Assembly: GCA_030950485.1 (NCBI GenBank)
Contig: JAUZRK010000014.1
Coordinates: forward strand, 2,431-66,430
DNA from: Candidatus Dojkabacteria bacterium
GTDB taxonomy: Bacteria; Patescibacteriota; Dojkabacteria; J137
Direction of reading: 5' to 3'
DNA: 64,000 bases
The notes below the pieces were generated by a model. The model ran no database searches. It was given only the letters and a program-made list of their open reading frames with translations, and was not told the origin of the DNA. Both the position numbers and the translations under genes were made by a program. Below are positions 409-61,500 of this stretch, in pieces. The stretch's first letter is position 1; the number at the start of each line of letters is the position of its first letter.

Positions 409-2289
409 TTAGTCTTTTATAAAATTACCAACTATTCCGCCTGCTGCATCTATAAGCTGATTACTTTTCATAACAATAGACTCAGTTCTTAATCCACAGT
501 TAAAAGCTGACCGCTCTTCAACAGTTACTTTTTCATCAAAGTAATTTGGTATATCTAATAAATTACCAAAAGGTGGAACACCACCAATGATTAATCCATA
601 ACGCTCCTTTATTACTTCAGGTTTTTCCATTTCAACCTTCTCTCCAACTATTTCTTCAACAGCTTTAAAATCTATCCTCATATTTCCAGGTATATTTACT
701 ATATAGTTTTTTTCAGATTTCTTTCCTTTTAGAATAATTGCTTTTACTTCCTCACTTTCTTTTGTTCCTCTAACTCTCGCTGAGTCTTCAGAAGTAGGTG
801 TTTCTTCATGTACACTATATTCATATTGAAATTCTTTAGCATCTAAAAGCGACTTTATAGCCTTAACCATATCTTTACCATCGTTAATATCAGAAGCAAG
901 TGTCTTAATACCTAGTTCATTCATTTGTTCTTTTGAAATTGTACCTGGCCCTTCCATAACCGAAGTCTTACCTCCATAAGTCATTGGGAATGCGATAGTC
1001 TCTTTTAATGATTCTTCTCCTGCAAAAAGCATAACTAGTCTATCTAGACCTAGTGCAATTCCACCATGTGGAGGAGTTCCTAAATCAAAAGCTTTAAGCA
1101 TATGCCCTACTCCTGATTCAATTTCCGAATCACTATACCCCATTATTTTATAAGTAGCTCTTAGAATTTCAGCCTTATGTGCTCTTACACTTCCTCCTCC
1201 TACTTCATATCCATTACAAACAAGGTCATATTGCTGACTAACAATATCTCCTATATTTTCACCATTTAAGTGCCATTCTAAATATTCTTCATTTGGCATA
1301 CTGAAAGGATTATGTGTAAATGTCCACCCACTTTTCCCATCTCGTACTTCAGCTTTATCATCAGAATCAACTTTCTTGAAGAAAGGGAATTTATGTACCC
1401 AAGCAAATGCAAGTTCACCATTTTTCTTTTGTTCTTCAGTTCTCATATCGAATTTATCTGCACCATACTTCTCAATTGCCTGATCATACGGAATTCTAGG
1501 AAAATCAGTAGTTGTCAATTTAACATCAAATTTTGCTGCTACTTCTTTTACTATAGACTCAATAAGCTGCATTATTTCTTCTTGTGTTCTAAAACTAGTT
1601 TCTACATCTATTTGAGTATGTTCAAAACCTCTATCTGCTCTTAAATCTTCATCCCTTATACATCTAGCTAACTGAAAATAATTCTCTACACCTGCTGTCA
1701 TCAAAAGCTGTTTATATTGTTGTGGACTTTGAGGTAATGCGTAAAACTTTCCAGGATTTAATCTAGAGGGTACTACAAAGTCTCTTGATCCCTCTTTTGT
1801 AGAAGCAGTTAACATTGGTGTTTCAACCTCTGTAAAACCTCTGTTTAAAAATGCATTTCTAAATTCAAAAGCTAGTTTTGATCTTAACTTCAAAACTTTT
1901 CTCATTCGCTCTCTTCTTAAATCTAAATATCTAAATTTAAGTCTTGCTTCTTCTTTTATATCATATCCATCTCCAATTACTGGAATGGGTAGGGGATTAG
2001 CTTTGTTCAAAACTTTATACTCTAAAACTTCAATTTCTATTGTTCCAGTTATCATATCAGGATTAATCTGGTTTTCTGGCCTTGCATTTACCTTTCCCTT
2101 AACTTCGATAACAGTTTCGTTTGTAATATCTTTAAACATCTTAACGCCAACACACTGAACGATTCCACTTCTATCTCTTAAAGTAACAAACGCTACTTTA
2201 CCCATTAGTCTATAATTTTCAACCCATCCCTTAATAGTTACCTCCTGATCAATTTTTTCTAGTGTATCTTTTATTAGAGTTCTTTCCAT
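409..2289 (-). CDS. aspS: Aspartyl-tRNA synthetase, bacterial type, with a ~180-aa C-terminal extension resembling a YbaK/ProX-type aminoacyl-tRNA deacylase domain
   Basis: 626-aa ORF. Class II motifs: FRYLDLRR, QSPQQYKQLLM, CIRDEDLRADRGFEHTQIDVETSF and GGIALGLDRLVMLFAG (motif 3). The C-terminal tail contains IIGGVPPFG and a ...AAGG... motif typical of the YbaK/ProX fold. Confidence 0.85.
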   Translation of the reverse strand: MERTLIKDTLEKIDQEVTIKGWVENYRLMGKVAFVTLRDRSGIVQCVGVKMFKDITNETVIEVKGKVNARPENQINPDMITGTIEIEVLEYKVLNKANPLPIPVIGDGYDIKEEARLKFRYLDLRRERMRKVLKLRSKLAFEFRNAFLNRGFTEVETPMLTASTKEGSRDFVVPSRLNPGKFYALPQSPQQYKQLLMTAGVENYFQLARCIRDEDLRADRGFEHTQIDVETSFRTQEEIMQLIESIVKEVAAKFDVKLTTTDFPRIPYDQAIEKYGADKFDMRTEEQKKNGELAFAWVHKFPFFKKVDSDDKAEVRDGKSGWTFTHNPFSMPNEEYLEWHLNGENIGDIVSQQYDLVCNGYEVGGGSVRAHKAEILRATYKIMGYSDSEIESGVGHMLKAFDLGTPPHGGIALGLDRLVMLFAGEESLKETIAFPMTYGGKTSVMEGPGTISKEQMNELGIKTLASDINDGKDMVKAIKSLLDAKEFQYEYSVHEETPTSEDSARVRGTKESEEVKAIILKGKKSEKNYIVNIPGNMRIDFKAVEEIVGEKVEMEKPEVIKERYGLIIGGVPPFGNLLDIPNYFDEKVTVEERSAFNCGLRTESIVMKSNQLIDAAGGIVGNFIKD

Positions 2290-5473: not shown

Positions 5474-6232
5474 GTGATGGAAAATGATATATCCAAAAGA
5501 CAACAGAACCTTCTAAATGCGGTTATAAAAGAATTCGTAGATACGGCAGAAGCTGTAGGTTCTATTAATCTGTTAAATAAATATAACTTTAAGGTAAGTT
5601 CTGCAACTATACGAAATGAAATGGCAGAATTAGTTTTAACTGGCTATTTATATAAAAAGCATACTAGCGCTGGAAGAATACCAACGACAAAAGGTTGGAG
5701 GTTTTTTGTAGATAATCTTAAAGAGGAATTAAATTATGTAGATGCTTCAAAAGCTGCATTAGACAATCAAGCAAAAACTCAATTTGTTTCAGACCTTGTT
5801 AAATTAAAAAATGAGAAAGGAGATTTAATTAGGCAGAGTTTGAACTTTTTATGTATGCTTTCTGATAATCCAACTATTGCCTTAATTGGCAAGAACGTAT
5901 ATTACTCTGGTCTGTCACTTCTCCCAAAAATTCCTGAGTTGCAAGAAGAAGATAACCTAAAAAGATTACTTCAGATTTTAGAAGACTACTATACCTTATC
6001 AGAAGTGTTCAATAAATCTGAGAAAAAAGAGGATGTAAATATCCTTATAGGTGAAGAAGAAACAGGAGATGAAAGATTTAAAAACTACTCTGTTATCTTT
6101 TCTGAAATTAGTTTTAGTAATGGTGAAAGAGGTTTTATAGCTGTAATTGGACCTAACAGAATGGATTATCAAAAAATCATTTCATCTTTAAAATATATTT
6201 CAGATACGATTAAGTTTATTGTAAACAATTAA
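5474..6232 (+). CDS. hrcA: Heat-inducible transcription repressor HrcA (short form). The likely start is the ATG at 5477.
   Basis: SSATIRNEMAELVLTGYLYKKHTSAGRIPTTKGWRFFVDNL matches the HrcA wHTH region. 252 aa. Confidence 0.75.
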   Translation: MMENDISKRQQNLLNAVIKEFVDTAEAVGSINLLNKYNFKVSSATIRNEMAELVLTGYLYKKHTSAGRIPTTKGWRFFVDNLKEELNYVDASKAALDNQAKTQFVSDLVKLKNEKGDLIRQSLNFLCMLSDNPTIALIGKNVYYSGLSLLPKIPELQEEDNLKRLLQILEDYYTLSEVFNKSEKKEDVNILIGEEETGDERFKNYSVIFSEISFSNGERGFIAVIGPNRMDYQKIISSLKYISDTIKFIVNN

Positions 6233-6244
6233 TTAGATTAGGCT

Positions 6245-6673
6245 ATGGATAATCTTGAAACTAGAATTAATTCATTAATAGAAAAAACACTTAGCCTCTT
6301 ATATATTGAACTTACTGATGAAATTAAATATATAAATGTTGATTATGTATCATTTAAAGTTAGTGATTTAGACATTCAACTAAATTTAAGTGAAATGAAA
6401 ATCTTTGAGAAGACAAGAGATTACGCTATTTATATTTTAAATGAGGCTAAAAATACAGAATTAGGTTTTTTAGAAATCGTTAAATTCAGTACACTAGATG
6501 ATGACTATATTGACCTAAGACATAGCAACTATAAAAAACTTAAAAGCTCTTATAGTAATAAACTTAAAGAAGTGATAACTGAGGATGGTTATGAATTACA
6601 ACAGTTGAAAAATAAAAATGATTTTGTAGTATATTTTGTTGAAAAACCTTTATCTTTAGATATTAAAAACTAA
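6245..6673 (+). CDS. Hypothetical protein between hrcA and grpE
   Basis: 142-aa ORF in operon context. No recognisable domain. Confidence 0.4.
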   Translation: MDNLETRINSLIEKTLSLLYIELTDEIKYINVDYVSFKVSDLDIQLNLSEMKIFEKTRDYAIYILNEAKNTELGFLEIVKFSTLDDDYIDLRHSNYKKLKSSYSNKLKEVITEDGYELQQLKNKNDFVVYFVEKPLSLDIKN

Positions 6674-17045: not shown

Positions 17046-18548
17046 CTAAAAATTCAAATTACCAATTGGTGAACTAGTAGGCGGGTTAGCCTCTTGAATT
17101 GTTATACTTACGCTATTACTGAATTCAGAACACGCATTATCATTTATAGTACAAAGTGTAAAACTATAAGAACCCGGAGTTAGTGTCCAATAATAATTTC
17201 GAGAATCTTGAGTTAACATTACAGAATTTGCACTGTTAGCTGAATATTCTGGGCCATTTAAACCAAGTATTAAGTAATACCCCTTACTATTATCAAAACC
17301 TGTTATATCCCAGCTTAAGTTCGCTCCATTATCATCAGTAGATGCATATAGATTAAATACATCTTTTACAGTAATTACTTCAATTATTCTTGTAACTTTA
17401 AGCTCTTTAGTTGTTTCGTTATTATTTAATGGATTAATAGCCTTAATCTCTATTTCATTTAATCCCTCAGAAAGATCAATCTTATACGTAAACACTCCGT
17501 TTACAGAATCTATTTCTTCATCATTTATCGTTATAATTGCATCTTTTGAGCTCGTTCTACCTGTTATTTCAAGAGTGGGATCTTTAATTTCAAAATCGCT
17601 ATCCTTAGGAGAGGTAATAGTTAAATCTGGTGCTGTTAAGTCAAGATCTAGAGTTGAAGGAAAACCTCTCTTTGATATTGAATCAAGATCTTCGTCTTTA
17701 TCAATTCTAGATAATACTTCTGATCTAAAGCTATCACTGTCGCTTAAGTTTAATGATCTAACATCAATAAAGATTTCATCTAATAGTTTTTGTCTTTTAT
17801 ACCAGCTAGTTATTGATATTTCCTCTACAATTTTTCCCTCTGCAGAAGAGCAATTTAAGCTATCCCTATCAACTTGAGCTAGACTACCTGAAGGGATATC
17901 AATTGTTTCTTCATTACAACCAACTGCTTCAACATTATTTTCTTCTACACTTACAAAAGTCTCTCCACTAAACCTTTCATAAACATTAAAGATTGATTTA
18001 CCTGCAGTTATAGTAGAACTTGAAGCCTCAACATTAATTGTTGAAGACTGAATCCTGCTCCAAATACTACCAGAAAGTAATTCTATGTTTATATCGTTAT
18101 TAGTAAGACTTATAACAAGCTCAGTATTAGGATCAACACTTATAAATGAATTATCAGGAAGAAAAATGTAAGAAAAACTGTTTGTTGCATTTTTAATATA
18201 TGAAGGATTATCCAAGACTATCTCTCCTGCCTCCATTATTTCATAAACATCTTCTTCTGAAGATTTATAACTTATAGTACCCGAGCCTCTTACTAAAACA
18301 ATATCATTCAAACCTGTTTGTATTTGATTAGATTCACCTCCAAACTTTGTAAGAAGTGCTAAAACAAATGCAACTAAGACAATTATTCCAAATATAAATA
18401 TTTTTTTTCTATTATCTGATGCTTTATCTATATATTTATTTAGTTTTTCTCTAATAGTTTTTTTATCAGCTATTAGATTAGCTTCTTCAGAAATATCATT
18501 TGTAATTATTTCTTCATTTGCTGTTGATTTCATTTTTATTCTTTCCAT
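17046..18548 (-). CDS. Membrane-anchored protein with FecR-like beta-sandwich domain
   Basis: TM helix near residue 50, then the IVLVRGSGTISY...ELLSGSIWSRI pattern typical of FecR domains. Ser/Asp-rich linker. Confidence 0.45.
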   Translation of the reverse strand: MERIKMKSTANEEIITNDISEEANLIADKKTIREKLNKYIDKASDNRKKIFIFGIIVLVAFVLALLTKFGGESNQIQTGLNDIVLVRGSGTISYKSSEEDVYEIMEAGEIVLDNPSYIKNATNSFSYIFLPDNSFISVDPNTELVISLTNNDINIELLSGSIWSRIQSSTINVEASSSTITAGKSIFNVYERFSGETFVSVEENNVEAVGCNEETIDIPSGSLAQVDRDSLNCSSAEGKIVEEISITSWYKRQKLLDEIFIDVRSLNLSDSDSFRSEVLSRIDKDEDLDSISKRGFPSTLDLDLTAPDLTITSPKDSDFEIKDPTLEITGRTSSKDAIITINDEEIDSVNGVFTYKIDLSEGLNEIEIKAINPLNNNETTKELKVTRIIEVITVKDVFNLYASTDDNGANLSWDITGFDNSKGYYLILGLNGPEYSANSANSVMLTQDSRNYYWTLTPGSYSFTLCTINDNACSEFSNSVSITIQEANPPTSSPIGNLNF

Positions 18549-18581
18549 ATTAGATATCTTACTAAATTAATAATATGTTTA

Positions 18582-21500
18582 CTATCTGCTGATTTCATTA
18601 ATCATTACTTTAGCAGTCTTCCCAATACCAAATACATCTGGTGAATACATTAGATTTACTTTTGGAGGATTAACATTATATTCTCCACTAAAAGTAGCTC
18701 TTGTTAAATATTCATATTTATAAGCACCTTTTGGTAGATTGCTCATAAGTAACCCAACTCTATCTCCTAATAATCTCTCTCTAGTTATAAGATAACCTAA
18801 ATTAGTATAACTATTATTACTTATATCAGAATTTCTTGCAAAGTAGTTATAGTCATTATCAATTTTACTCTTTAAAGATTGATCTACTGTACCTAAATTA
18901 AAATTCACTAATTCATAACCAGCAGCTATTGGAGCCTCAACTAATACTTGTGAATAATCTCCCTCGGATATTATATATAAAGTATGCTTTATTATATCTC
19001 CTTCTTTAATATTTTCAATAACTCCATCTATTGATTCAATTTCTTCAAAGATAGTAAATCCATGAGAAACAGGTCTTATATCACTAAAATCAGGATAGGT
19101 ATTTAAGTTCAATCTGTAATATTGATTATGATTAGAAAAATTATATAGCGTTAACTCATTTAACTTATCTAAATTCCCAACTGTCAGGCTCTCCTCACTA
19201 CATTCAATACAAATATCCTTATTATTCAATAACGCACTAAATTTAATATCTCCGTCAATTATTTCATCTCTATCAATTCTATAGTTAGAAACAGTATTAA
19301 TAACTGATGCTACAGAGAATGTTGAGTAGTTATTGTTTTCATTATCTCTTAACCACATCATTCCCTTTTCAGTTAATGAATCGTAACCTCCATCTCTAAT
19401 TAAAGTTAGTAATACAGTTGCTGTAACATTCTCATTCGAGTCAGAATAATAGTAAGTACTAGAATCATTTGATTCCCAATAAATTAAGCCTGCACTTAAT
19501 GTTCCAGAATTAATTAAATCATTCATTAACTCGTCATATCTTGAAGAGTTTTTATCCAAAGACATAACTAGCCAAGCTTTAGCGCTATTATCATATACCT
19601 TATCGTAAATATTATTTATCAGTGATTCAGTAGATTTTGATTCATACAAACTAGTAACATATATTCCTAAAGCTCTAGATGTAAGCGTAGTAGAATTTTT
19701 GTCTGTCTTTAAGAGTATTTCTAATCTATCTACTCCTTTATTAACAACTGTACTACTAACGCTAATGCCATTTCCCTCAGCAATATATAAAGCGTAAAGT
19801 GCATACGCAGTATTTTCAATATTTGCTTGAGAATATTGCTTATTCCAGAAATCCCAGCCTCCAGATGAAAGTTGTAGATCATATAATTTACTAACCAAAG
19901 CACTAACTTCTTTATCATTCAAACCATCTAAATCATTTAGGTTTCTAAGTCCTAAATATGAAATCAATTTTGATGATGTTTGGTCAGTACAGTAGTAATT
20001 ATATTTAGTAATATATTCCTTCTCCTGACCAATATTTTTTGCAAGTGAAGGAGTAACCTCTAGATCTAAATTAGAATAAATAGCATCATCAGATACTTCT
20101 ATTATCTCAGTAGCGCTAAAATTAAGTTTTCCTGTGGTACTATTCGTCTCATAATGAGTAGCAAAATTTAAAGGTATTTCTTTTAGTACTGAGTCTAATT
20201 TTTCTTCCCCTTTATATAAGTTAAACTGAAATTTAACTAATGGATCTGTACTTGTAGCTTCTATAGCTACTTCATAAATTTCCCCTTTATTAGCAGCTAT
20301 TGTAATCGGCTCTGTTAATAAGACTTCTTCATTTCCAGATACATTTGAAATTATCTCAATTGAAGCATCAATATCTTTATCTGTATTATTCTGTAGTAAA
20401 GCACCAACGTTAAGCTTATCTCCATATGTCACAAATCTTGGTAGACTTGGAAATATTTGATAGTTAAGATTAGATATAATCTCTACTTTCTCTTGTCCAA
20501 AAAGATCTTCACCGCTACTAGCTTTTGCCACTATTACCCATGTTGTTAAATTGTCAGGTAATTCAAAATCTAAAGTTGCTTTACCATCTTTTCCAGTTTT
20601 AATTTCTGTCTGCCAGAAAGCCGTATCTTTAAATTCTTTTCTTGTGTCTAACTCATCAAATAAATTTGTAGATCCTCCTCCGCCTCCACCCTTGTCTCCC
20701 CATACAAGGTCTTCTCTAACTTTATCTATACTTAATGTTAGATTGTTACTTGAAGCAATATTGTACTCTCTTAATTTGTACATTACTTCTAATATGTTCT
20801 TATCTCCTATCAAAGCTAAATCGAATAAAGCTTTATCTACTACCGAAACAGTAACTCTTGAGTCAATATTTACTCCCTTTCTTGAAGTATTTATTTTCAG
20901 TTCGACCTTATCTCCCGGCTTATAACTTTTTTTATCTGAATTAATATCAACATCTAGCTTTTTATCTTCAAAGTCTACAACCAGTTCAGTAGTACCAATT
21001 CTAAAATCAGCTTTATTGCTAGCTGATGAGTTCTGTCCTTCAACAATTACACTAGTTAAGAAAATATTAGGAACATATTCTTCCTTAATCTCCTTATTTA
21101 TCTGATAACTAGGTGAATCTGATTTAACTACTTCATATTCTAGTATGTTATCCCAACTATAAATATTTAATAAATAAGCACTATTAAAGTTAGTACTAAT
21201 ATTTAGTTTTGCTATATCAGAAACACTATAAGCATTTTTATCTTTTTCAATATCAATTTCATGACTATCACCTAATTTATAACTATAGCTATAGTAATAA
21301 GGATCATATGCTCTAAATAAAGCTCTACTAACTTCAACTCCATTTCAAAAAACCTTTGCTACATATAAGCCTCCACTTGAAGGTATGAAATTTACAGAGG
21401 CCTTTCCATTTGAAGTCCGTAATCCTTCTTCGTATAAATATATATCATCAAAAATATATTCATAGTAAAGTCCTAAGCTGGAATCTTCTGTTCTTACCCA

Positions 21501-24500
21501 ATCTTCATTTCGCTTGTAGAACGCTACAGTAAAATTTGAGTCAACAGGATTAGAGTTAGTATCCAATGATACATAATCTATATTTAGCTCCTCTCCAACT
21601 GTATTAAAATAACTAGAGAATCTATAACCAAGTTGAATATCTGAATTTATTACTTTTATATCTTTCGAAGTAATAACTACTTCATTATTAATATCTATTA
21701 TTTCAGCATAAAATGTATTTAGCTGTAGGACATATTTAGGATCGATAGTTGAGTTAAATCTAATGATTGCCTCGCCATTCTCGTCAGTTCTTGCTTCTCC
21801 TTCAAGTACTATTTCACTTTCAAAATCAGATACATTTTCACAATATAAATAACAATACATATACATATCAGAAAGATCATCGGCCAGTTTATTGGTAAAA
21901 CTATAGTCGGAGTATTCTGGAATTGATGTAAAAGTGTCTCTTAATGTTATTTTCCAATTTACTTCTGCATTTGAAAGAGCCGCACCGCTAAAATATCTAC
22001 TATTTAATTTTATTTGAACTTCTTCACCAGTCTGAGCTATATCATTTGCTTCAAGCTCAACATAAAAATCTTTCTTCTTATAGTCTTCTACTAAAAATTG
22101 AGCGCTTGTATTGCTTGCGTCTGCTACATCAATAAAAAACTTAACTCCTTCCGAACCTTCTGGAATTACAAATGAACCATTAAATTCTCCGTTACCATTT
22201 AAATCATAATTTTTCTTAATACTGTCTAAATTTATACCATTAGCATAAATATTTAATTTTACTGAGTCGGAATTAAATTTAGGATAGCTAGTTGGAAAAC
22301 TAGAAATTGGATAACTAGTAGCACTTTCTCCATCATTAGGAACAACCATTCCTGTATCAGTCCATTCTCTAACGTAACCTTTAAAATTAACAGTGTCTCC
22401 AGGCTTATATAAAGTTCTATCAGTATAGACATACGCAATTATTGGATCTAGTGTTGCTCTACCTTTTGGATACCAGTATCCTCCCATTCCATTGCTCCAA
22501 TTTGAATCTAATATTCCAAACCTACCCTTATACTCAGCATAAATAATCAAATCTTGCTTAGAGTAATTATTTCCGTGATGTAGTCCTTTTGAAAGTAAGA
22601 CTCCGTCAGAACCAGTAGATCCTAAGAATGATCCATTACTTAAATATATCTTTGCCCCTGAGACAGGTTCACCGCTAACTGCATCTACAATCCAAGTTAG
22701 ATCAGATGTAGTTCCCTGATGTAGTGTTAATGCAAGAGATGAATAATTTATAATCTGTAAGTCTTGGTCATTTATTATCAACATATATACACCTTCGCCC
22801 TTTGTTTTATCAGTAATATCTACTTTATATTGGCTTGTTTCATTAAACTACTCTTTATACATTTCTGAATTATCAACGCTCCAAGAGCTAATCATTGAAC
22901 TACTAAAGTAGTTTGCTAGTTCAGCAGTGTTCATGTAATTACCGTTCTGAGAATAAATATACCCGCCGGATTTAAAAGTATTTGGGGATAGCTTATATAA
23001 TTTATAATTAAAGCTTGAATAATTTGTACTACTAAACCATACTTCCAATGGATTTGATGCGTTGTACATCGCTCTTTCACCTCCTACAATTTCAATACTT
23101 GGGTCGTAATCTTTTGTTTTATAAGAAAAAGATACTGGATATTTTAATCCTAAACCATCAGCAGAATTTCCATTTAAAACTTGAATATTATAGCTAGTCG
23201 AAGGTTCATTATAACCCTTTAATGATACATATCTATCGCCACTATACCAATATGATTCATCTCTAGTTAAAGTCTTACCATTTACTAAAATATTACCGAC
23301 AAGACTATCTACATTCATTTCAGTAGTAAAACTAATTGAGGGTTCACTATGATAAGCAAGTCCAGTTGAATCATTAATTGAAACGTTTATATCTGCTTCA
23401 GGATAATCAACAGTCGAAAAAACTACTCTTCTTTCTTCGCCTAGTGGAGAATTTGTTTCTAATGCTCTTAAATCTCCACTAAAAATAATTTGATAATTAG
23501 TTATTGGGTTTAAGTTAATACCTGGTTGAATGTATATATAATTAGAAGAGCCTTTAGTCTCCTGTGAAAGAATAATTTGAATATCGTATCCTTGATTATA
23601 TTCAGGCACTAATTTAATTTTATTAATATCAAGCTGAACAGCAACATTAAATTCTATAGAAATTCTTTCTGAAAGACCGTATCCTCCGCCTAATGAATTT
23701 TCTGATAAAAGAATAGGTTTCTCTCTTTCAATACTCCATTCGAAAGGTTCCTGCATCTTTAAACCGTCAGTTGATTCTATTAATTCATTATTAACATTTA
23801 CGGTATAAATATAACCTAGATCAAATCCATTTGATGGTCTAAATCTTAATGTTGTAGTTGAAAGCCATTCGTATTCACCTTCAACTTCAGGTGTGATTGT
23901 AACCGGAATCTCCTTTTCTTGTTGATCATCGACACTTGCTAGAGATGTCACAGGTTTGTTAAATGTAATAATAATATCCTGATTTTTTTCTTTTAGTATT
24001 TGAGGAGTATTAATTATTACCTCTGGATATGTAGTTGTCTCGAATTTGAATGATTGGATCTTATTTTTAATATCATTATTTTCTATAGTTACCTCAGATT
24101 CTGTTGCAAGTTTTAATGATTCATCAGGGATTAAAATTAGTTTATTTTCTTCCCACTTAGCTTCATAATCTATTTCAGGTGTTATCTCAATACTTTCCTA
24201 AAACTCATCTCTGATTTTTACAACACCATTAAGATTTATTTCAATTGATGAATCTATAGGTACTTCTGAAATATTTCTTCTAGGGGAAGATCCTGTTAGA
24301 TAGATAGTGTCCAATTTTTTCTCAAAACCAAAAGTATCTATATTTATTAGTGAGGTCAAAAAGAAAAACGAAAAGAATAGAATTGAAAAACCAACGATAG
24401 GTCGGCTTCTTTTATTATTAACTTTGTTTATAATTTTAGAATTCCTTATTCTCAAAGCTAGACTTGTAATTCTTGCTTTTGCGAATTTGATAATAGAAAT

Positions 24501-40900: not shown

Positions 40901-42423
40901 ATGAGTATAGTAGAATTGGAACCAGATGCTGTAGAAATGATACAAGCAGAAAACATGAAGAGATATGAGCAACTTAGGAATGTTCCTGGTAGCGCAGACG
41001 GTGAAGGACCACCTGTAATTGATATATTAGGAGAGTCTTCTGAAGCAGAAGAAGATAGGAAGAATGTATTTAAAGCAGTTAAACATAATCTAGGTAAAGT
41101 AGGTGAAGATTTCTCTAATAGTCCAGATTATGATCCAGAATCAATTACTAATCAAGAATTAGTAGCTAGAAGATTCTTTAATCTACGTCAAAAATTTGGA
41201 AATGACTATATTAGTGAAATTGTTTTGGAAGATATAAATTCACCTAAGTACTGCGTCGTTAATCAAAGAGCAAATTTAATGCAATATCCAATTGCAATTG
41301 ACGACTATGGCGATTATCCATATCAATTTGATTTCAGAGAAGGATTAGAACCAAATGATTGGATACTGGGTATTTTTGACGGAGTTAATGCAAACGAGGC
41401 TGGTCTTATTGTAGCTAAAGCAGAAGTTGGAAAGGGAGATATTAAAGAAAAGTGGGCGTATATCAGAACTCATAATAAAGAAGGTTGGATTAGAGAGGAT
41501 GACTTGGCGATGAAAGAAAAAGATGAAATAGATTTTGATCCGCTAAGACCTGCTAAGAATCAAGAAAGATTAGGCGAAAATTTTGGGGTTGTAGTAGAGA
41601 TAGGGCTTAAATATGATCCTATCCAAAAACGATTAGTATCAGTAGATCCATTTAAAACTAATGATAAATTAAAAAACGATCAAATAGATAAAATTGTAGC
41701 TGGTGGAATGCTTGAAGATATTGGAGACGGAATAGCAGAAAAGGGTGAAAGATCATTATTATCTTTAGGTGATCCTATTAAAATTATTTCTGAAGTTGAA
41801 GAAGATTTTTTAGTTGAACTAGCTAACGGTAAACAATATCTATTAGATAAGAATTATCTAAATAGAGGCTACTTGGAGAAAACTCCAGAAAATTTTAGAA
41901 TGATGCTAGAAAAAGCAATTGGAAATCCATATTCGTGGGGAGATGGAGATGGAATAAATTTTGATTGTTCCGGACTTACAGAAAGAGTTCAAAAAGCTTT
42001 TGGTATTGCAAGTGGAGCTGGAAGTGACGCTCAGACATTGGAAACGATTTAGGATTAGTGTATAGAGGAATGGATGTAGATTTTCTTCCTGCAGATGTTA
42101 ATGAACTTATTAACCTAGGAGTTGATATTGACAAGTTAAAAGGTAAATTCTTTTTAGTAGGAATTGAAGGAGCTCATGGTATGTTTGGAGAAATAAATGA
42201 TGATGGAAAAATTCTCTATTATCATTCTATTGGCTATACTACGGATATGAGTAAGCTGCGAAAGTTAAATAATGCTGAAACAGAGGCTGATCATCAAATT
42301 AATCCTACGACTAAGTTCTTTAGAGTAAATAAAGAAATACTTGTTCCCCTAAATAGTCAGGAAGAAGGTTTTAATATAGCTATCAAAGCTAGAAACAGAA
42401 GAATGGCAATTTTAGTAGTGTAA
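40901..42423 (+). pseudogene. NlpC/P60-family cell-wall hydrolase with SH3-like N-terminal region, split by a frameshift near 42040-42057
   Basis: ORF1 ends NPYSWGDGDGINFDCSGLTERVQKAFGIASGAGSDAQTLETI* (Cys motif). ORF2 in the next frame continues GLVYRGMD...GKFFLVGIEGAHGMFGEINDDGKILYYHS (His motif region). Inserting one T in the attt run joins them. Confidence 0.5.
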
Positions 42424-49145: not shown

Positions 49146-51293
49146 TTAGTCTTTCCTAAGTAAACTAGCCCTCATCAATCGTATTTCATTATAACTATAA
49201 TTATCTCCTAAAAATTCCTTTATCGGAGCTAGTTTCTGCTTACCGATTTTTTTACATGCATCTAAAATCTTTTTTTGTTTGTCTTTTGGGACCAGTTTGA
49301 ATATATCAATATCCTCACCTCCTAAATATGCCTTTTCTAAATGAGAAATTACTGTAAAAACTTTAATTCCTCTATTCTCTACTATCTCTTCTGGACTTAG
49401 TCCTTTATAGAATAAAGAAGCAGTTTCATCAATTGTAGCTGATCTAGAGATACCTCTAGTCCTTTTTTGCTTTATTGGTATTGGAACTGATCTAACATCA
49501 TTCTCTTCACAATAAAGTTTTATTTCCTTAATAAAATCTTTACCGTAATCATCAAATTTCTTTTGTCCTACTCCTTTTATACGTTTAAATTCTATTCGCT
49601 TTTGAGGAAAGTATTGAGCCATTTCTTTAAGAGAGCTGTCCTGAAAGATAAGATATGGTGGAACATCTTCTCTGTCTGCTATCTTTTTTCTTATAACTCT
49701 TAGTCTATCAAATAAATTTGTATCAACTTCACCATCTAATAAATCTCTTTTTAATGTCATTTGTTGTCTAATTTTATGTAAAACTACTTGTTCACCTCCT
49801 TTTAAAACTAATGATGCTTTTTGAGAAAGTCTTAGAACAGGATATTTATCCTGACTTAAAAGTAAATATCCTTGTTGGATAAGTTCTTTTATATATAACT
49901 GTAAATCCCTAACATTAATATCTGTAATGATCTTATACGTTGAAAGCTCATCATGAGCTAATTCTTTGATTTTCTTTGATTTAGAACCTGTAAGAATTTT
50001 TGCTGTATGTGTAACTCCAAATCTTTGATCTAATTTATAAACACAGGACAATACTTTTTGGGCAAGCTCAGTACCGTCAAAATCTTTTAATGGATCGATA
50101 CAATTATCACAAGCTTTACAATTACCTTTACTATATTTTTCATCAAAATACTCTAGTAGAGCGTGCCTTCTACAAACAGAGCTTTCAGCAAAATTTAGAA
50201 GCATTCTTAGCTGGAATCTCGCAACTTCTACTTCACTCTCATCTTCCATTTGTAAAATAAAATATTCAATTTTTGCTTTATCTCCATAACCAAAAAATAA
50301 AATACAATCACTTACCAGACCATCTCTTCCTGCTCTACCTGTTTGTTGATAATATTGTTCTATGCTCTGTGGAAGATCATAGTGAATCACATATCTAACG
50401 TCAGGTTTATTTATACCCATTCCGAAAGCAGTAGTAGCAATAATAATATCTACATCATCTCTAATAAACTTCTCTTGATTAGATTCACGTTCATCACTGC
50501 TTAAACCGGCATGATAAGGTAAAGCCTTAAATCCGTCTACTTTCAATGATTCTGTTAATTCATCTACTTGTTTTCTACTAAAACAATATATTATTCCTGA
50601 TTCTCCCTGTTTACTATTTATAAATTCTAATAGTTGAGCATATACCTGAACTTTTGGTTTAATATAGTACTTTAAATTTGGTCTATCAAAGCTAGTTGTA
50701 TATGAATTATTTTCTTTAAAGCTTAGTTGATTAACTATGTCTTTCCTTACTCTTTTAGTTGCAGTAGCAGTTAAAGCAATAATTGGAACATTTGGAAAAA
50801 TAGAACGTAAAACACTTAGTTTTCTATATTCTGGTCTAAATTCATGTCCCCATTGGGAAATACAGTGAGCCTCATCAATAGCAAACAAGCTGATATTTAA
50901 TTTTTTTATAAATTCTAAAAAATCTTCTTGAAGTAATCTCTCAGGTGCTAAATAAAGTATAGATATTTCATTAGATCGAAGCTTTTTAAAGATAGTAGAT
51001 CTTTCCTCATCTGAAAGCGTACTATTTTAAAATGCCTCCTTTACCCCATTCTGAAGAAGACTATCTGTCTGGTCTTTCATTAATGAGATTAGAGGAGAGA
51101 CTACTATTGTTAACCCATCCTGAACTATTGCGGGTATTTGGTAACAAAGTGATTTTCCACCTCCAGTTGGCATTAATACAAATGTATCCTTTTTGTCTAA
51201 TACATCATTTATAATTTCTTCCTGTGAAGGTCTAAATTCAGTATAGCCAAAGTACTTTTCTAAAGTTTTATAAATATCTTCTGTTGTTGACAT
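49146..51293 (-). pseudogene. recQ: ATP-dependent DNA helicase RecQ interrupted by one in-frame TAA (51027-51029)
   Basis: Upstream piece ...[15 protein letters not shown]...LQNGVKEAF*. Same-frame continuation NSTLSDEERSTIFKKLRSNEISILYLAPERLL...FAIDEAHCISQWGHEFRPEY. Helicase, RQC-like Zn (CxxC) and HRDC regions intact. Confidence 0.7.
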
Positions 51294-60096: not shown

Positions 60097-61500
60097 ATGG
60101 CATTGTCCGTAGAAGAGAATAAAAAACTAAAAAAGATATCTCAAAATATCTTGTCAGATTTAGAAAAAGCTGGTGGATATTATATAGGTTCTAAGTTTGA
60201 TAGAAAGAAAAATCGAATGATGCCTTCACCAAGTCCATACTATATTTCTCAAAGAAAACTATCCCTTTGTGAAACCAACGGTGAGAAAATTTTCAAAATG
60301 TGGGATACAACTCAGATGCTTTATAAAAAAGCAATACTTGGAGAAATAGAAGAACCTAATTTAATACTACAAACTATTGAAGGCGATATAACTCAGGCAC
60401 AAAGAGAAGTACAAAGACTAATTGCCAGAAAACAAAGTACTTTACCTATATTTGCTAGAGCTGATCTTACTAGTTTCTGGCATCTTGCTGAAGTGCAAGA
60501 AAGAATGGGGGCGCTTGGTTTATTTCAAAATTGGCTAGAAGCGATTAAAAAAAATATACCTTTGGAAGAAGGTACCGAATATATCGGTAAAGAGAGTTTA
60601 ATTGATGATATAGTCAAAGGAATAATAGAATCAACTCAAAAAGAAGATCCAACAGTTGTACTTATAACACCAAAAAACTATTTAGCTGAACAAAAATCTT
60701 TAGCTAAGAAGCTTTCTAGCTTAGGTATTATCACTTTTGTGGTAGAAAAGGATAAATTGGATAATCTCAAAGTAAAAGATGGTTATATATATTATCCAGT
60801 AAATAGAAAAAAACAAGTAAAAGTTGACTTCATATATAGAAGAGAGGTAAATGCTGCAATACTTGCAAACTCAAACATAGGAAAAAATATAATTGAAGCC
60901 TCAATTGAAAACAAAGTTGTATGTGAGCCACCTCTCAATATGATATATGATACGAAGTCTCCATTAGCCTTTGTTAAACACCCTAGGCTGAGTAAATTCT
61001 TTACAAATGAAAGTGAAATAGTACCAGAAACATCTTTTATTCCAGCTAATAAGAATCTATCATTTATTTATAAAGGACAAAACCTCAATTTAGAACAAAT
61101 ATTAGACTTATCAGTCTCCAAAAGACTTTTTGTAATTAAATATAGCGGCCCAAATATAGAATATGGCTTTGGAGGAAGAGGAGTATTTAATGTTAATGAT
61201 AGTAGAAGAAGTGCAAATAGAGTTTTAGACATTGCCATAGAGCAAGTCAAATTAGGTAATCCTTGGATCATTCAAAATTATGATAAGACAAGAGCACATT
61301 TAATTTGGTTAGATAAATCAAACGAAGTTAAAGAAACTAATAAAAGTGCATCTAGATGGATGGTTTATTATAGGAGAGAAAAGAATGGTAAAGTAAACTT
61401 GTTTAATATAATGGGAACAAATCGACCAGGAGACTCTTGGAAAGCATCAGGTAGCCCAAAGTCTGTTGTTCAAACTGTGAGATTCTTACCCAAATCCTAA
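60097..61500 (+). CDS. Hypothetical protein, possibly ATP-grasp-like
   Basis: 467 aa. Weak resemblance only (Gly-rich FGGRGVF). Confidence 0.35.
   Translation: MALSVEENKKLKKISQNILSDLEKAGGYYIGSKFDRKKNRMMPSPSPYYISQRKLSLCETNGEKIFKMWDTTQMLYKKAILGEIEEPNLILQTIEGDITQAQREVQRLIARKQSTLPIFARADLTSFWHLAEVQERMGALGLFQNWLEAIKKNIPLEEGTEYIGKESLIDDIVKGIIESTQKEDPTVVLITPKNYLAEQKSLAKKLSSLGIITFVVEKDKLDNLKVKDGYIYYPVNRKKQVKVDFIYRREVNAAILANSNIGKNIIEASIENKVVCEPPLNMIYDTKSPLAFVKHPRLSKFFTNESEIVPETSFIPANKNLSFIYKGQNLNLEQILDLSVSKRLFVIKYSGPNIEYGFGGRGVFNVNDSRRSANRVLDIAIEQVKLGNPWIIQNYDKTRAHLIWLDKSNEVKETNKSASRWMVYYRREKNGKVNLFNIMGTNRPGDSWKASGSPKSVVQTVRFLPKS

What the first reader, a model, noticed from the sequence alone, without database searches (positions are those of the whole stretch)
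409..2289. AspRS with a C-terminal YbaK/ProX-like deacylase-type extension
The AspRS catalytic core ends at motif 3 (GLDRLVMLFAG...AFPMT) around residue 440. About 180 more residues follow, containing GGVPPFG and a C-terminal ...AAGG... motif characteristic of the YbaK/ProX trans-editing fold. I am not aware of a described AspRS fused to a YbaK-type domain. It could edit mischarged tRNA or relate to non-discriminating Asp-tRNA(Asn) metabolism, or it could be a gene fusion created by a lost stop codon.
Basis: partly seen in the sequence, partly recalled or inferred. Interest (0 to 1): 0.6.

Follow-up and report, generated by a model that had tools for sequence, protein, structure and literature searches.

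The report
AspRS with tethered ProX-type editing domain
This gene encodes an aspartyl-tRNA synthetase permanently joined to a YbaK/ProX-type tRNA-proofreading domain; the pairing recurs on three different AspRS types in ultra-small bacteria and archaea, which suggests that AspRS, thought not to need proofreading, has a quality-control partner there.

Summary
Window 409-2289 (-) is one 626-aa ORF: OB anticodon domain, bacterial-type AspRS core, then a complete YbaK/ProX (INS-superfamily) domain (Pfam PF04073, E 1.5e-20; AlphaFold pLDDT 97; TM 0.84 to ProX structures). It is not a lost-stop artefact: 117 of the 120 closest homologue clusters (52-75% identity; Dojkabacteria and other Patescibacteria) share the architecture. 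The universal catalytic Lys (K516) and the GXXXP loop (G569-P573) are invariant. The same domain subfamily is fused to the C-terminus of three AspRS scaffolds: bacterial GAD-less (this one), bacterial with GAD (~742 aa) and archaeal-type (~600 aa). It also occurs as a separate gene directly downstream of aspS or upstream of asnS, including in a DPANN archaeon. I tested and refuted three simple explanations: replacement of the missing GAD domain, absence of AsnRS, and replacement of a missing ProRS INS domain. Best reading: a hydrolytic aminoacyl-tRNA deacylase functionally coupled to AspRS; its substrate is unknown. Candidates are Asp-tRNAAsn, a non-cognate or D-amino acid on tRNAAsp, or classical Ala-tRNAPro-type substrates. 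I found no description in the searchable literature; a 2024 review lists seven editing synthetase families, without AspRS.

The parts
409..2289 (-). Complete CDS (626 aa plus stop codon) of the AspRS::ProX-like fusion protein
   Evidence: Single ORF. Identical to NCBI protein P0001, annotated 'amino acid--tRNA ligase-related protein [Candidatus Dojkabacteria bacterium]'. NCBIfam aspartate--tRNA ligase equivalog NF001750 scores 559.6 bits against a cutoff of 443.
2008..2241 (-). OB-fold anticodon-binding domain (residues 17-94)
   Evidence: Pfam PF01336, E 2.4e-15.
979..1953 (-). Class IIb catalytic core, bacterial AspRS type (residues 113-437), including motif 3
   Evidence: Pfam PF00152, E 5.7e-103. 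Best PDB sequence matches are bacterial AspRS chains 4rmf, 4o2d, 1eqr and 1c0a, E about 1e-101 to 1e-107.
1414..1440 (-). Site of the missing GAD insertion domain (residues ~284-292 replace ~128 residues)
   Evidence: In the alignment to 4rmf, query 283->293 corresponds to chain 286->414. No PF02938 hit.
892..978 (-). Ordinary bacterial AspRS C-terminal tail (residues 438-466), low-confidence in the model; acts as the flexible tether
   Evidence: Aligns with the C-terminal tails of solved bacterial AspRS. pLDDT is 55-68 for residues 431-470 in the full-length model.
412..882 (-). Appended ProX/YbaK-fold (INS-superfamily) domain, residues ~470-626
   Evidence: PF04073 at 494-614. AlphaFold2 model pLDDT 97.1, pTM 0.90. 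Foldseek TM 0.84 to 2cx5 and 1wdv. Family profile against PDB: 3op6 at E 3e-28.
742..744 (-). Codon of K516, the universal INS-superfamily catalytic/CCA-positioning lysine
   Evidence: Invariant in 69 fused sequences and in 163 of 163 clade members. Aligns with K46 of H. influenzae YbaK. Its role is described in PMC10164551.
571..585 (-). GXXXP loop G569-G-V-P-P573 (the 'GGVPPFG' motif)
   Evidence: G569 is conserved in >=90% and P573 is invariant; 161 of 163 and 163 of 163 in the wider clade.
808..810 (-). Codon of H494, an invariant subfamily residue at the end of the first strand
   Evidence: Invariant in fused sequences; 158 of 163 in the clade.

Best explanation
The gene encodes a working bacterial-type AspRS (GAD-less) with an INS-superfamily (YbaK/ProX-fold) aminoacyl-tRNA deacylase domain attached through a flexible ~30-residue connector. 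The domain is functionally coupled to AspRS. After AspRS charges a tRNA, the aminoacylated CCA end is captured by the tethered domain, either in cis or by rebinding after release. K516 steers the A76 phosphate, and the GXXXP loop together with the A76 2'-OH promotes water-mediated hydrolysis of an unwanted aminoacyl ester. This makes it a post-transfer proofreading module for the Asp/Asn branch of translation. Shown: the architecture, the fold, the intact catalytic signature, deep conservation, and recurrent fusion or adjacency to AspRS genes. Inferred: that it is catalytically active, that its target is a product of AspRS, and what that target is. Candidates in decreasing order of my preference: Asp-tRNAAsn; a non-cognate or D-amino acid on tRNAAsp; small amino acids on other tRNAs.
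For: Architecture and fold. Not an artefact: 117 of the 120 nearest clusters are fused. Purifying selection on the catalytic signature: the tail averages only 34% identity against 62% for the AspRS body, yet K516 and P573 are invariant and H494, G569, F596, G599 and S604 are conserved in >=90%. The homologous Lys is strictly conserved and essential for deacylation in every INS member tested (PMC10164551). Link to AspRS: the same domain clade is fused C-terminally to three AspRS scaffolds. These are bacterial GAD-less, bacterial with GAD (P0151, P0199; L155 scores 885 bits on NF001750) and archaeal-type (50 loci; NF003483 scores 439-481 bits against a cutoff of 353). Genuine split pairs aspS->proX occur in L015, L085, L127, L143 and L150/L151, and proX->asnS pairs with 1-53 nt spacing occur in L007 and L096. 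Of 71 classifiable metagenome loci, 56 are fused to AspRS and 5 lie next to aspS or asnS. P0199's tail is closest to free-standing proteins, which suggests more than one fusion event. In every previously known synthetase-editing fusion the editing domain acts on that synthetase's own tRNA (established knowledge; PMC11295145).
Against: No biochemical data exist. AspRS is not known to need editing, and bacterial AspRSs tested in vitro made no misacylated Glu-tRNAAsp or Glu-tRNAAsn (PMC6523644). Nine of 71 domain genes have no adjacent Asp/Asn synthetase. Two free-standing orthologues sit directly downstream of tRNA-Pro(GGG) and tRNA-Ala(GGC) genes, which points to classical Ala-tRNAPro editing. 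The connector is low-confidence, so the geometry for cis-editing is unknown. For the Asp-tRNAAsn idea specifically, gatCAB presence or absence could not be tested. Also, archaeal tRNAAsp and tRNAAsn share G1-C72 (PMC1635274), which makes acceptor-stem discrimination harder in the DPANN case.
Confidence: 0.6

Rival explanations
1. The domain is a generic trans-editing factor of the ProXp-ala, ProXp-x or ProXp-ST kind. It would clear Ala, Abu, Cys, Ser or Thr from tRNAPro or other tRNAs, and is attached to AspRS only for co-expression, stability or proximity to the translation machinery.
For: All characterised INS-family members act on errors of ProRS or of Ser/Thr-misactivating synthetases (PMC11295145). 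By single-sequence search the nearest solved relative is ProXp-x 2cx5. Free-standing orthologues P0128 and P0123 lie 22 nt and 63 nt downstream of tRNA-Pro(GGG) and tRNA-Ala(GGC) genes. Three fused-AspRS genomes have an INS-less ProRS nearby (L008, L009, L070).
Against: The fusion partner is always AspRS, on three unrelated scaffolds, with further adjacency to aspS or asnS. A generic factor would be expected to show varied partners. INS-containing ProRS co-occurs with fused AspRS on the same contigs: P0493/P0003, P0494/P0112, and P0488/P0031, the last with a double INS. With a family profile the domain is far closer to the uncharacterised 3op6 (E 3e-28) than to ProXp-x, YbaK or ProXp-ala (E 1e-18 to 5e-12).
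Confidence: 0.2
2. The domain is a non-hydrolytic acceptor-end binding module. It would raise tRNA affinity, or hold and protect the aminoacyl end (for example for hand-off of Asp-tRNAAsn), in the way the YqeY domain is appended to Deinococcus GlnRS.
For: The conserved Lys and loop also serve CCA-end binding (PMC10164551). There is precedent for C-terminal tRNA-binding appendages on synthetases (PMC1865053, listed) and for AspRS-GatC fusions (NCBIfam NF009460). Many carriers are GAD-less AspRSs that may bind tRNA more weakly.
Against: The full catalytic signature is conserved, not just a binding surface. The fusion also occurs on GAD-containing AspRS, and 65 of 80 GAD-less AspRSs in the genome scan have no such domain within 10 kb, so it does not compensate for GAD loss. 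AsnRS is present in the fused genomes, so hand-off to an amidotransferase is not obviously required.
Confidence: 0.12
3. The fusion is an artefact: an assembly chimera, a sequencing error that removed a stop codon, or a decaying pseudogene tail.
For: The window comes from a metagenome-assembled genome. Split aspS/proX pairs exist in relatives, so a single base error could mimic a fusion.
Against: The identical architecture appears in 117 of the 120 nearest clusters from many independent samples and sources, in 13 GTDB genomes and in 56 metagenome contigs. The reading frame is continuous, with a conserved linker. The domain models at pLDDT 97 with an intact active site.
Confidence: 0.01

Closest known systems
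ProXp-ala fused to the N-terminus of ProRS in protists (Plasmodium, Trypanosoma, Leishmania)
   Same: A normally free-standing INS-superfamily domain covalently attached to a class II synthetase. In T. brucei the fusion improves deacylation (PMC11286415).
   Different: The partner there is ProRS and the position is N-terminal. The substrate (Ala-tRNAPro) follows from ProRS's known error. Here the partner is AspRS, the position is C-terminal, the subfamily is different (3op6-like) and no AspRS error is known.
INS editing domain of bacterial ProRS
   Same: Same fold and same catalytic Lys and GXXXP signature; a cis-acting post-transfer editing module.
   Different: INS is inserted between motifs 2 and 3 of ProRS. 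It is only distantly related in sequence (profile E 3e-9 to 0.4).
lpg1207 of Legionella pneumophila (PDB 3OP6), an uncharacterised single-domain YbaK-like protein
   Same: Closest solved relative by family profile (E 3e-28). It shares the H...T...K...G-x-x-P-P-F-G...F-N-x-G signature.
   Different: It is free-standing, of unknown function, and falls just outside the clade holding the AspRS-fused domains in the NJ tree. No paper mentions 3OP6 in the searchable library.
ProXp-x (T. thermophilus TTHA1699, PDB 2CX5), an Abu-/Ala-tRNA deacylase
   Same: Best structural match (TM 0.84, rmsd 2.2 A) and best single-sequence PDB hit (E 1.5e-10).
   Different: 22-27% identity. It falls outside the clade, is single-domain, and prefers A73 tRNAs (PMC11295145), whereas the tRNAAsn genes captured here have G73.
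Bifunctional AspRS-GatC (NCBIfam NF009460) and Deinococcus GlnRS-YqeY
   Same: C-terminal appendages on synthetases of the Asx/Glx systems that tie the enzyme to handling of a mischarged or intermediate aminoacyl-tRNA (PMC1865053, listed).
   Different: Those appendages are amidotransferase-related tRNA-binding or scaffold modules, not hydrolase-fold editing domains.

Membership tests
Bacterial-type aspartyl-tRNA synthetase (class IIb) | N-terminal OB-fold anticodon-binding domain | tested here: met
   PF01336 at residues 17-94, E 2.4e-15.
Bacterial-type aspartyl-tRNA synthetase (class IIb) | Class II D/K/N catalytic core scoring above the curated AspRS equivalog cutoff | tested here: met
   PF00152, E 5.7e-103. 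NF001750 scores 559.6 bits (cutoff 443) and TIGR00459 scores 493.7 (cutoff 373.85).
Bacterial-type aspartyl-tRNA synthetase (class IIb) | GAD insertion domain between motifs 2 and 3 | tested here: not met
   No PF02938 hit. About 128 residues are missing relative to 4rmf, 1eqr and 1c0a. The same deletion is found in unfused CPR AspRSs of 460-475 aa.
Bacterial-type aspartyl-tRNA synthetase (class IIb) | Aspartylation of tRNAAsp, and discriminating versus non-discriminating behaviour towards tRNAAsn | not testable with these tools
   Needs an enzymatic assay. Sequence similarity to D- and ND-type solved enzymes is equal.
INS / YbaK / ProX superfamily (Pfam PF04073 tRNA_edit) | Profile match above the gathering threshold over the full domain | tested here: met
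   74-77 bits against a cutoff of 25.5, profile 1-122/123.
INS / YbaK / ProX superfamily (Pfam PF04073 tRNA_edit) | YbaK fold | tested here: met
   Model pLDDT 97.1. All 37 Foldseek PDB hits with E<=1e-3 are INS-superfamily structures; TM 0.84 to 2cx5 and 1wdv.
INS / YbaK / ProX superfamily (Pfam PF04073 tRNA_edit) | Strictly conserved catalytic Lys (Cc ProXp-ala K45, YbaK K46, ProRS K279) | tested here: met
   K516 aligns with YbaK K46. It is invariant in 69 fused sequences and in 163 of 163 clade sequences. Its role is given in PMC10164551.
INS / YbaK / ProX superfamily (Pfam PF04073 tRNA_edit) | GXXXP loop | tested here: met
   G569-G-V-P-P573; G is present in 161 of 163 and P in 163 of 163. 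That this loop is the oxyanion/backbone element of the family rests on my own knowledge of the INS literature.
INS / YbaK / ProX superfamily (Pfam PF04073 tRNA_edit) | Aminoacyl-tRNA deacylase activity | not testable with these tools
   Requires deacylation assays.
YbaK proper (Cys-tRNAPro deacylase, TIGR00011 / NF007951) | Score above the curated equivalog cutoff | tested here: not met
   TIGR00011 scores 49.7-53.2 bits against a cutoff of 153.25. NF007951 scores 23.5-26.7 against 243. 1dbu gives E 0.11 by single sequence.
ProXp-x / ProXp-ala (characterised free-standing families) | Clustering with the family's reference structure (2cx5; 5vxb, 1vjf, 1vki) | tested here: not met
   Profile E-values are 5e-18 (2cx5) and 5e-12 to 7e-15 (ProXp-ala) against 3e-28 for 3op6. 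The references fall outside the clade in the NJ tree, which is weakly resolved.
Synthetases with a cis-editing domain (seven families known: Ile, Val, Leu, Thr, Ala, Phe, Pro) | Editing-fold domain covalently part of the synthetase and conserved across lineages | tested here: met
   The count of seven families is from PMC11295145; the list of names is from my own knowledge.
Synthetases with a cis-editing domain (seven families known: Ile, Val, Leu, Thr, Ala, Phe, Pro) | The domain hydrolyses a mischarged product of the same synthetase | not testable with these tools
   No known AspRS misacylation product. Needs biochemistry.

The most novel reading that the evidence does not exclude
The tethered domain is an Asp-tRNAAsn-specific deacylase. 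These reduced genomes encode AsnRS, often beside aspS and a tRNAAsn gene, together with an AspRS of relaxed (ancestrally non-discriminating) tRNA specificity. The appended domain would erase the Asp-tRNAAsn that AspRS makes, perhaps by reading the U1-A72 pair of tRNAAsn against G1-C72 of tRNAAsp, as GatCAB does. That would be proofreading of tRNA identity rather than amino-acid identity, and would make AspRS an eighth editing synthetase family. A variant of equal novelty is chiral proofreading of D-Asp scavenged from host peptidoglycan.
Probability: 0.2. Interest if true: 0.9.

Novelty: new variant of a known kind. Interest (0 to 1): 0.68.

Why it matters
AspRS is a textbook example of a synthetase that needs no proofreading, and current reviews list seven synthetase families with editing domains, AspRS not among them. 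Here a catalytically intact editing-fold domain has been captured repeatedly by three different AspRS scaffolds, in CPR bacteria and as a neighbouring gene in a DPANN archaeon. That implies an unrecognised fidelity or regulatory problem in the Asp/Asn branch of translation in ultra-small symbionts. It also gives a handle on an uncharacterised INS subfamily, the 3op6-like clade with over 1,000 representative clusters. The hypothesis is directly testable with recombinant protein, tRNA transcripts and a K516A mutant. In the same phylum, AsnRS with an N-terminal YbaK-like domain and ProRS with a duplicated INS domain suggest that Dojkabacteria invest unusually heavily in tRNA proofreading despite having tiny genomes.

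Tried and rejected
1. Lost-stop or assembly artefact: rejected.

2. The tail compensates for the missing GAD domain: rejected. GAD-containing AspRSs carry the same tail, and 65 of 80 GAD-less AspRSs in the genome scan have no such domain within 10 kb.

3. Fused lineages lack AsnRS and so need ND-AspRS chemistry: rejected. AsnRS lies on the same contigs as fused AspRS in at least six cases by matching contig lengths, and this is seen directly in L008 and L009.

4. The tail substitutes for a missing ProRS INS domain: suggested by L001 versus L008, L009 and L070, but rejected as a rule. INS-containing ProRS shares contigs with fused AspRS in three cases.

5. Membership in YbaK proper, ProXp-x or ProXp-ala: not met.

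6. The AsnRS N-terminal tRNA_edit domain is the same domain relocated: rejected. It is 28% identical, belongs to a different subfamily, and co-occurs with a fused AspRS on L006.

7. 'AAGG' as a family motif: not conserved.

8. Regulatory RNA leader (T-box) upstream of aspS: no Rfam hit.

9. Other asnS, proS or editing genes in the window: none.

10. Technical dead ends. Alignment A3 was too diverse for the metagenome scan. The Enzymes 2020 review and the JBC 2013 paper are not held. The sole GatCAB/Patescibacteria paper was irrelevant. gatCAB presence per genome and pocket geometry could not be examined, because there is no whole-genome access and model coordinates are not exposed.

11. My first BLAST labelling of the ~600-aa proteins as AsnRS fusions was wrong. 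NCBIfam corrected it to archaeal-type AspRS.
Full report
**1. The observation**

Window 409-2289 on the minus strand is one uninterrupted 626-aa ORF with an ATG start. Pfam finds an OB anticodon-binding domain (17-94), the class II D/K/N catalytic core (113-437, E 6e-103) and a full-length tRNA_edit domain PF04073 (494-614, E 1.5e-20, 74 bits against a cutoff of 25.5). NCBIfam places the protein above the curated cutoff of the bacterial aspartate--tRNA ligase equivalogs: NF001750 scores 559.6 against 443. The exact protein is in NCBI as 'amino acid--tRNA ligase-related protein [Candidatus Dojkabacteria bacterium]'. This fits the ~30% G+C.

- Residues 438-466 are the normal C-terminal tail of bacterial AspRS, because they align with solved AspRS chains. 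The appendage is therefore about 160 residues (467-626).
- 'AAGG' is not conserved among homologues, whereas GGVPPFG is the conserved GXXXP loop.

**2. The appended domain**

A 38-sequence alignment of tails gave an AlphaFold2 model with pLDDT 97.1 and pTM 0.90. All 37 significant Foldseek matches in the PDB are YbaK, ProX or ProRS-INS structures. The best are 2cx5 and 1wdv, at TM 0.84 and rmsd about 2 A.

By family profile the nearest solved sequence is the uncharacterised Legionella protein 3op6 (E 3e-28). This is well ahead of YeaK, YbaK, ProXp-x and APE2540 (about 1e-18) and ProXp-ala (about 1e-12 to 1e-15). The protein fails the YbaK equivalog cutoff, scoring 50 bits against 153.

Among 69 fused homologues H494, K516 and P573 are invariant. 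T499, S500, G569, P572, G575, F596, G599 and S604 are conserved in at least 90%. Across 163 fused and free-standing clade members, K516 and P573 remain at 100%.

K516 aligns with K46 of YbaK. [quoted passage not shown]

The tail evolves faster than the AspRS body (34% against 62% mean identity to the query) but keeps the catalytic signature. In the full-length model both parts are confident, while residues ~431-470 are not (pLDDT 55-68). That indicates a flexible tether.

**3. Not an artefact, and much wider than this genome**

- 117 of the 120 closest protein clusters (52-75% identity) have the same three Pfam domains. They are named Dojkabacteria, WS6, Beckwithbacteria or Patescibacteria.
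- In a scan of GTDB species genomes, 13 of the 80 best loci are fused. These include Dojkabacteria and a Microgenomates-group genome. Two more (WWE3, Doudnabacteria) have an unfused aspS followed directly by a separate ~153-aa orthologue of the tail.
- Those junctions are genuine two-gene structures. One has TAG, a GGGGAG Shine-Dalgarno-like sequence, then ATG in another frame; the other has a 72-nt spacer with hairpins.
- An exhaustive search with the tail finds 1117 representative clusters at E<=1e-3. These include AspRS fusions that retain GAD (P0151 at 748 aa, P0199 at 744 aa).
- A metagenome scan seeded with free-standing members gave the main surprise. Fifty of the 80 loci encode ~600-aa proteins in which the same domain follows an archaeal-type AspRS. 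NF003483 scores 439-481 bits against a cutoff of 353 in the four I checked.
- The same scan gave five ~742-aa GAD-type bacterial AspRS fusions, one GAD-less fusion, four aspS->proX split pairs, one proX->asnS pair, nine genes without an adjacent Asp/Asn synthetase, and nine fragments.
- Submitter names place the archaeal-type fusion in Woesebacteria, a split pair in 'archaeon GW2011_AR3', and a GAD-type fusion in a Tara Oceans 0.1-0.22 um fraction.

**4. Hypotheses tested**

(a) GAD replacement: refuted, because GAD-containing AspRSs also carry the tail and most GAD-less ones do not.

(b) Absence of AsnRS: refuted.

(c) Replacement of a missing ProRS INS domain: three fused genomes have an INS-less ProRS (L008, L009, L070), and one unfused genome has an INS-containing one (L001). 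I then tried to break the correlation and succeeded. INS-containing ProRS shares contigs with fused AspRS in three cases, one of them with a duplicated INS.

(d) Context of free-standing orthologues is mixed.
- L007 and L096 lie 1-53 nt upstream of bona fide asnS.
- L015, L085, L127, L143, L150 and L151 lie just downstream of aspS.
- P0128 and P0123 lie 22 and 63 nt downstream of tRNA-Pro(GGG) and tRNA-Ala(GGC) genes, with no Asp/Asn synthetase nearby.

I cannot explain that last observation under the AspRS-linked model. It keeps the generic-editing rival alive.

**5. Mechanism**

The best-supported reading is a hydrolytic post-transfer editing module tethered to AspRS and working with it. Several things are shown:
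- the fold;
- an intact active-site signature under purifying selection;
- recurrent fusion to three AspRS scaffolds, plus operon-like adjacency, which is classical Rosetta-stone evidence of functional coupling.

Inferred: that it hydrolyses an aminoacyl-tRNA made by AspRS.

The substrate is unknown. The idea I favour is Asp-tRNAAsn clearance in AsnRS-containing reduced genomes. Three points make it attractive:
- aspS, a tRNAAsn gene and asnS cluster together in Dojkabacteria.
- All captured tRNAAsn genes have U1-A72/G73.
- Bacterial tRNAAsp has G1-C72, a difference that another acceptor-end enzyme, GatCAB, exploits (PMC1635274).

There is also a precedent for a synthetase hydrolysing a mischarged intermediate (GluRS2 in H. 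pylori; title of PMC3241645, listed).

The idea remains speculative. gatCAB status could not be assessed, and archaeal tRNAAsp and tRNAAsn share G1-C72. Tested bacterial AspRSs make no misacylated Glu-tRNAAsp or Glu-tRNAAsn (PMC6523644), so an amino-acid error is not documented either.

**6. Comparison with what is known, and novelty**

[quoted passage not shown] The exceptions it gives are the protist ProXp-ala-ProRS fusion and the plant C-terminal domain, and it describes three clusters (ProXp-7, -8, -9) as uncharacterised (PMC11295145).

Ten full-text searches found no description of an AspRS or AsnRS fused to such a domain. The library omits most subscription journals. The proteins are already in public databases under plain names such as 'aspartate--tRNA ligase'.

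I classify this as a new variant of a known kind: a known fold and a known enzyme in a new, recurrent and unexplained combination.

**7. Caveats**

- The NJ tree of a 150-residue domain is weakly resolved, so the number of independent fusions is uncertain.
- Both locus samples are ranked by similarity, not random.
- Some 'free-standing' representatives may be fragments.
- Several MAG titles ('uncultured Pseudomonadales' or 'Gammaproteobacteria') look like placeholder names, because the loci carry CPR-type AspRS.

Noticed in passing
window 1414-1440 (residues ~284-292 of the AspRS); also L016-L089: This bacterial-type AspRS lacks the ~128-residue GAD insertion domain. The same GAD-less form (460-475 aa) is the standard AspRS across many Patescibacteria lineages in the genome scan.
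   Followed up: partly
L005 10001-11896; L006 3890-5737; proteins P0313, P0334, P0385: Some Dojkabacteria AsnRS proteins (615-631 aa) carry an N-terminal tRNA_edit domain of a different subfamily: 28% identical to the AspRS tail and nearest to APE2540/YbaK. On L006 one co-occurs with a fused AspRS 2.7 kb upstream, so both Asp/Asn synthetases of one genome carry editing-fold domains.
   Followed up: partly
proteins P0488 (729 aa) and P0480 (746 aa), and about a dozen similar hits of 726-782 aa: ProRS proteins from Dojkabacteria and other Patescibacteria have two tRNA_edit stretches inserted in the catalytic core, apparently a tandem-duplicated INS domain. P0488 shares a 598,548-bp contig with fused AspRS P0031.
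   Followed up: partly
L090 5883-5958 / 5981-6442; L092 5863-5937 / 6001-6498 (also L091, L093, L161): Two free-standing orthologues of the AspRS tail lie 22 nt downstream of a tRNA-Pro(GGG) gene and 63 nt downstream of a tRNA-Ala(GGC) gene. These are the two tRNAs of the classical Ala-tRNAPro editing problem. This is unexplained under the AspRS-linked model.
   Followed up: partly
L003, L005, L006, L007, L008, L009, L096, L130: A tRNA-Asn(GTT) gene sits just upstream of asnS, and aspS, tRNA-Asn, asnS, a prephenate dehydratase gene and proS form a loose conserved cluster in Dojkabacteria. tRNA-Asn is the most frequent tRNA in the fetched loci (10 of 64). All copies have U1-A72/G73.
   Followed up: partly
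protein P0195 (448 aa): A protein made of three tandem tRNA_edit domains and nothing else.
   Followed up: no
L150 2666-4465; L151: The split pair of archaeal-type aspS followed 7 nt later by the ProX-like gene belongs to 'archaeon GW2011_AR3' (KHO46761.1 and KHO46760.1, the latter annotated hypothetical), with a bona fide asnS 1.5 kb downstream. The association therefore crosses the bacteria/archaea boundary.
   Followed up: partly
window 17046-23951 (-): A run of minus-strand ORFs carries pieces of a bacterial alpha-2-macroglobulin: MG2 (21345-22784), A2M plus bMG10 (18582-20813) and Big_5 (22848-23951). Next to them is a FecR/glucodextranase-B domain protein (17046-18548). This may be a large surface protein split into several ORFs, or a multi-gene set.
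   Followed up: no
window 49146-50888 (-): The RecQ-like helicase ORF starts in the middle of the DEAD domain: profile positions 121-165 match residues 2-48. The N-terminal half may lie in a separate upstream ORF (for example 51027-51293) or may have been lost by a frameshift.
   Followed up: no
window 60097-61500 (+) and 40901-42052 (+): ORFs of 467 aa and 383 aa with no Pfam match at E<=1e-5.
   Followed up: no
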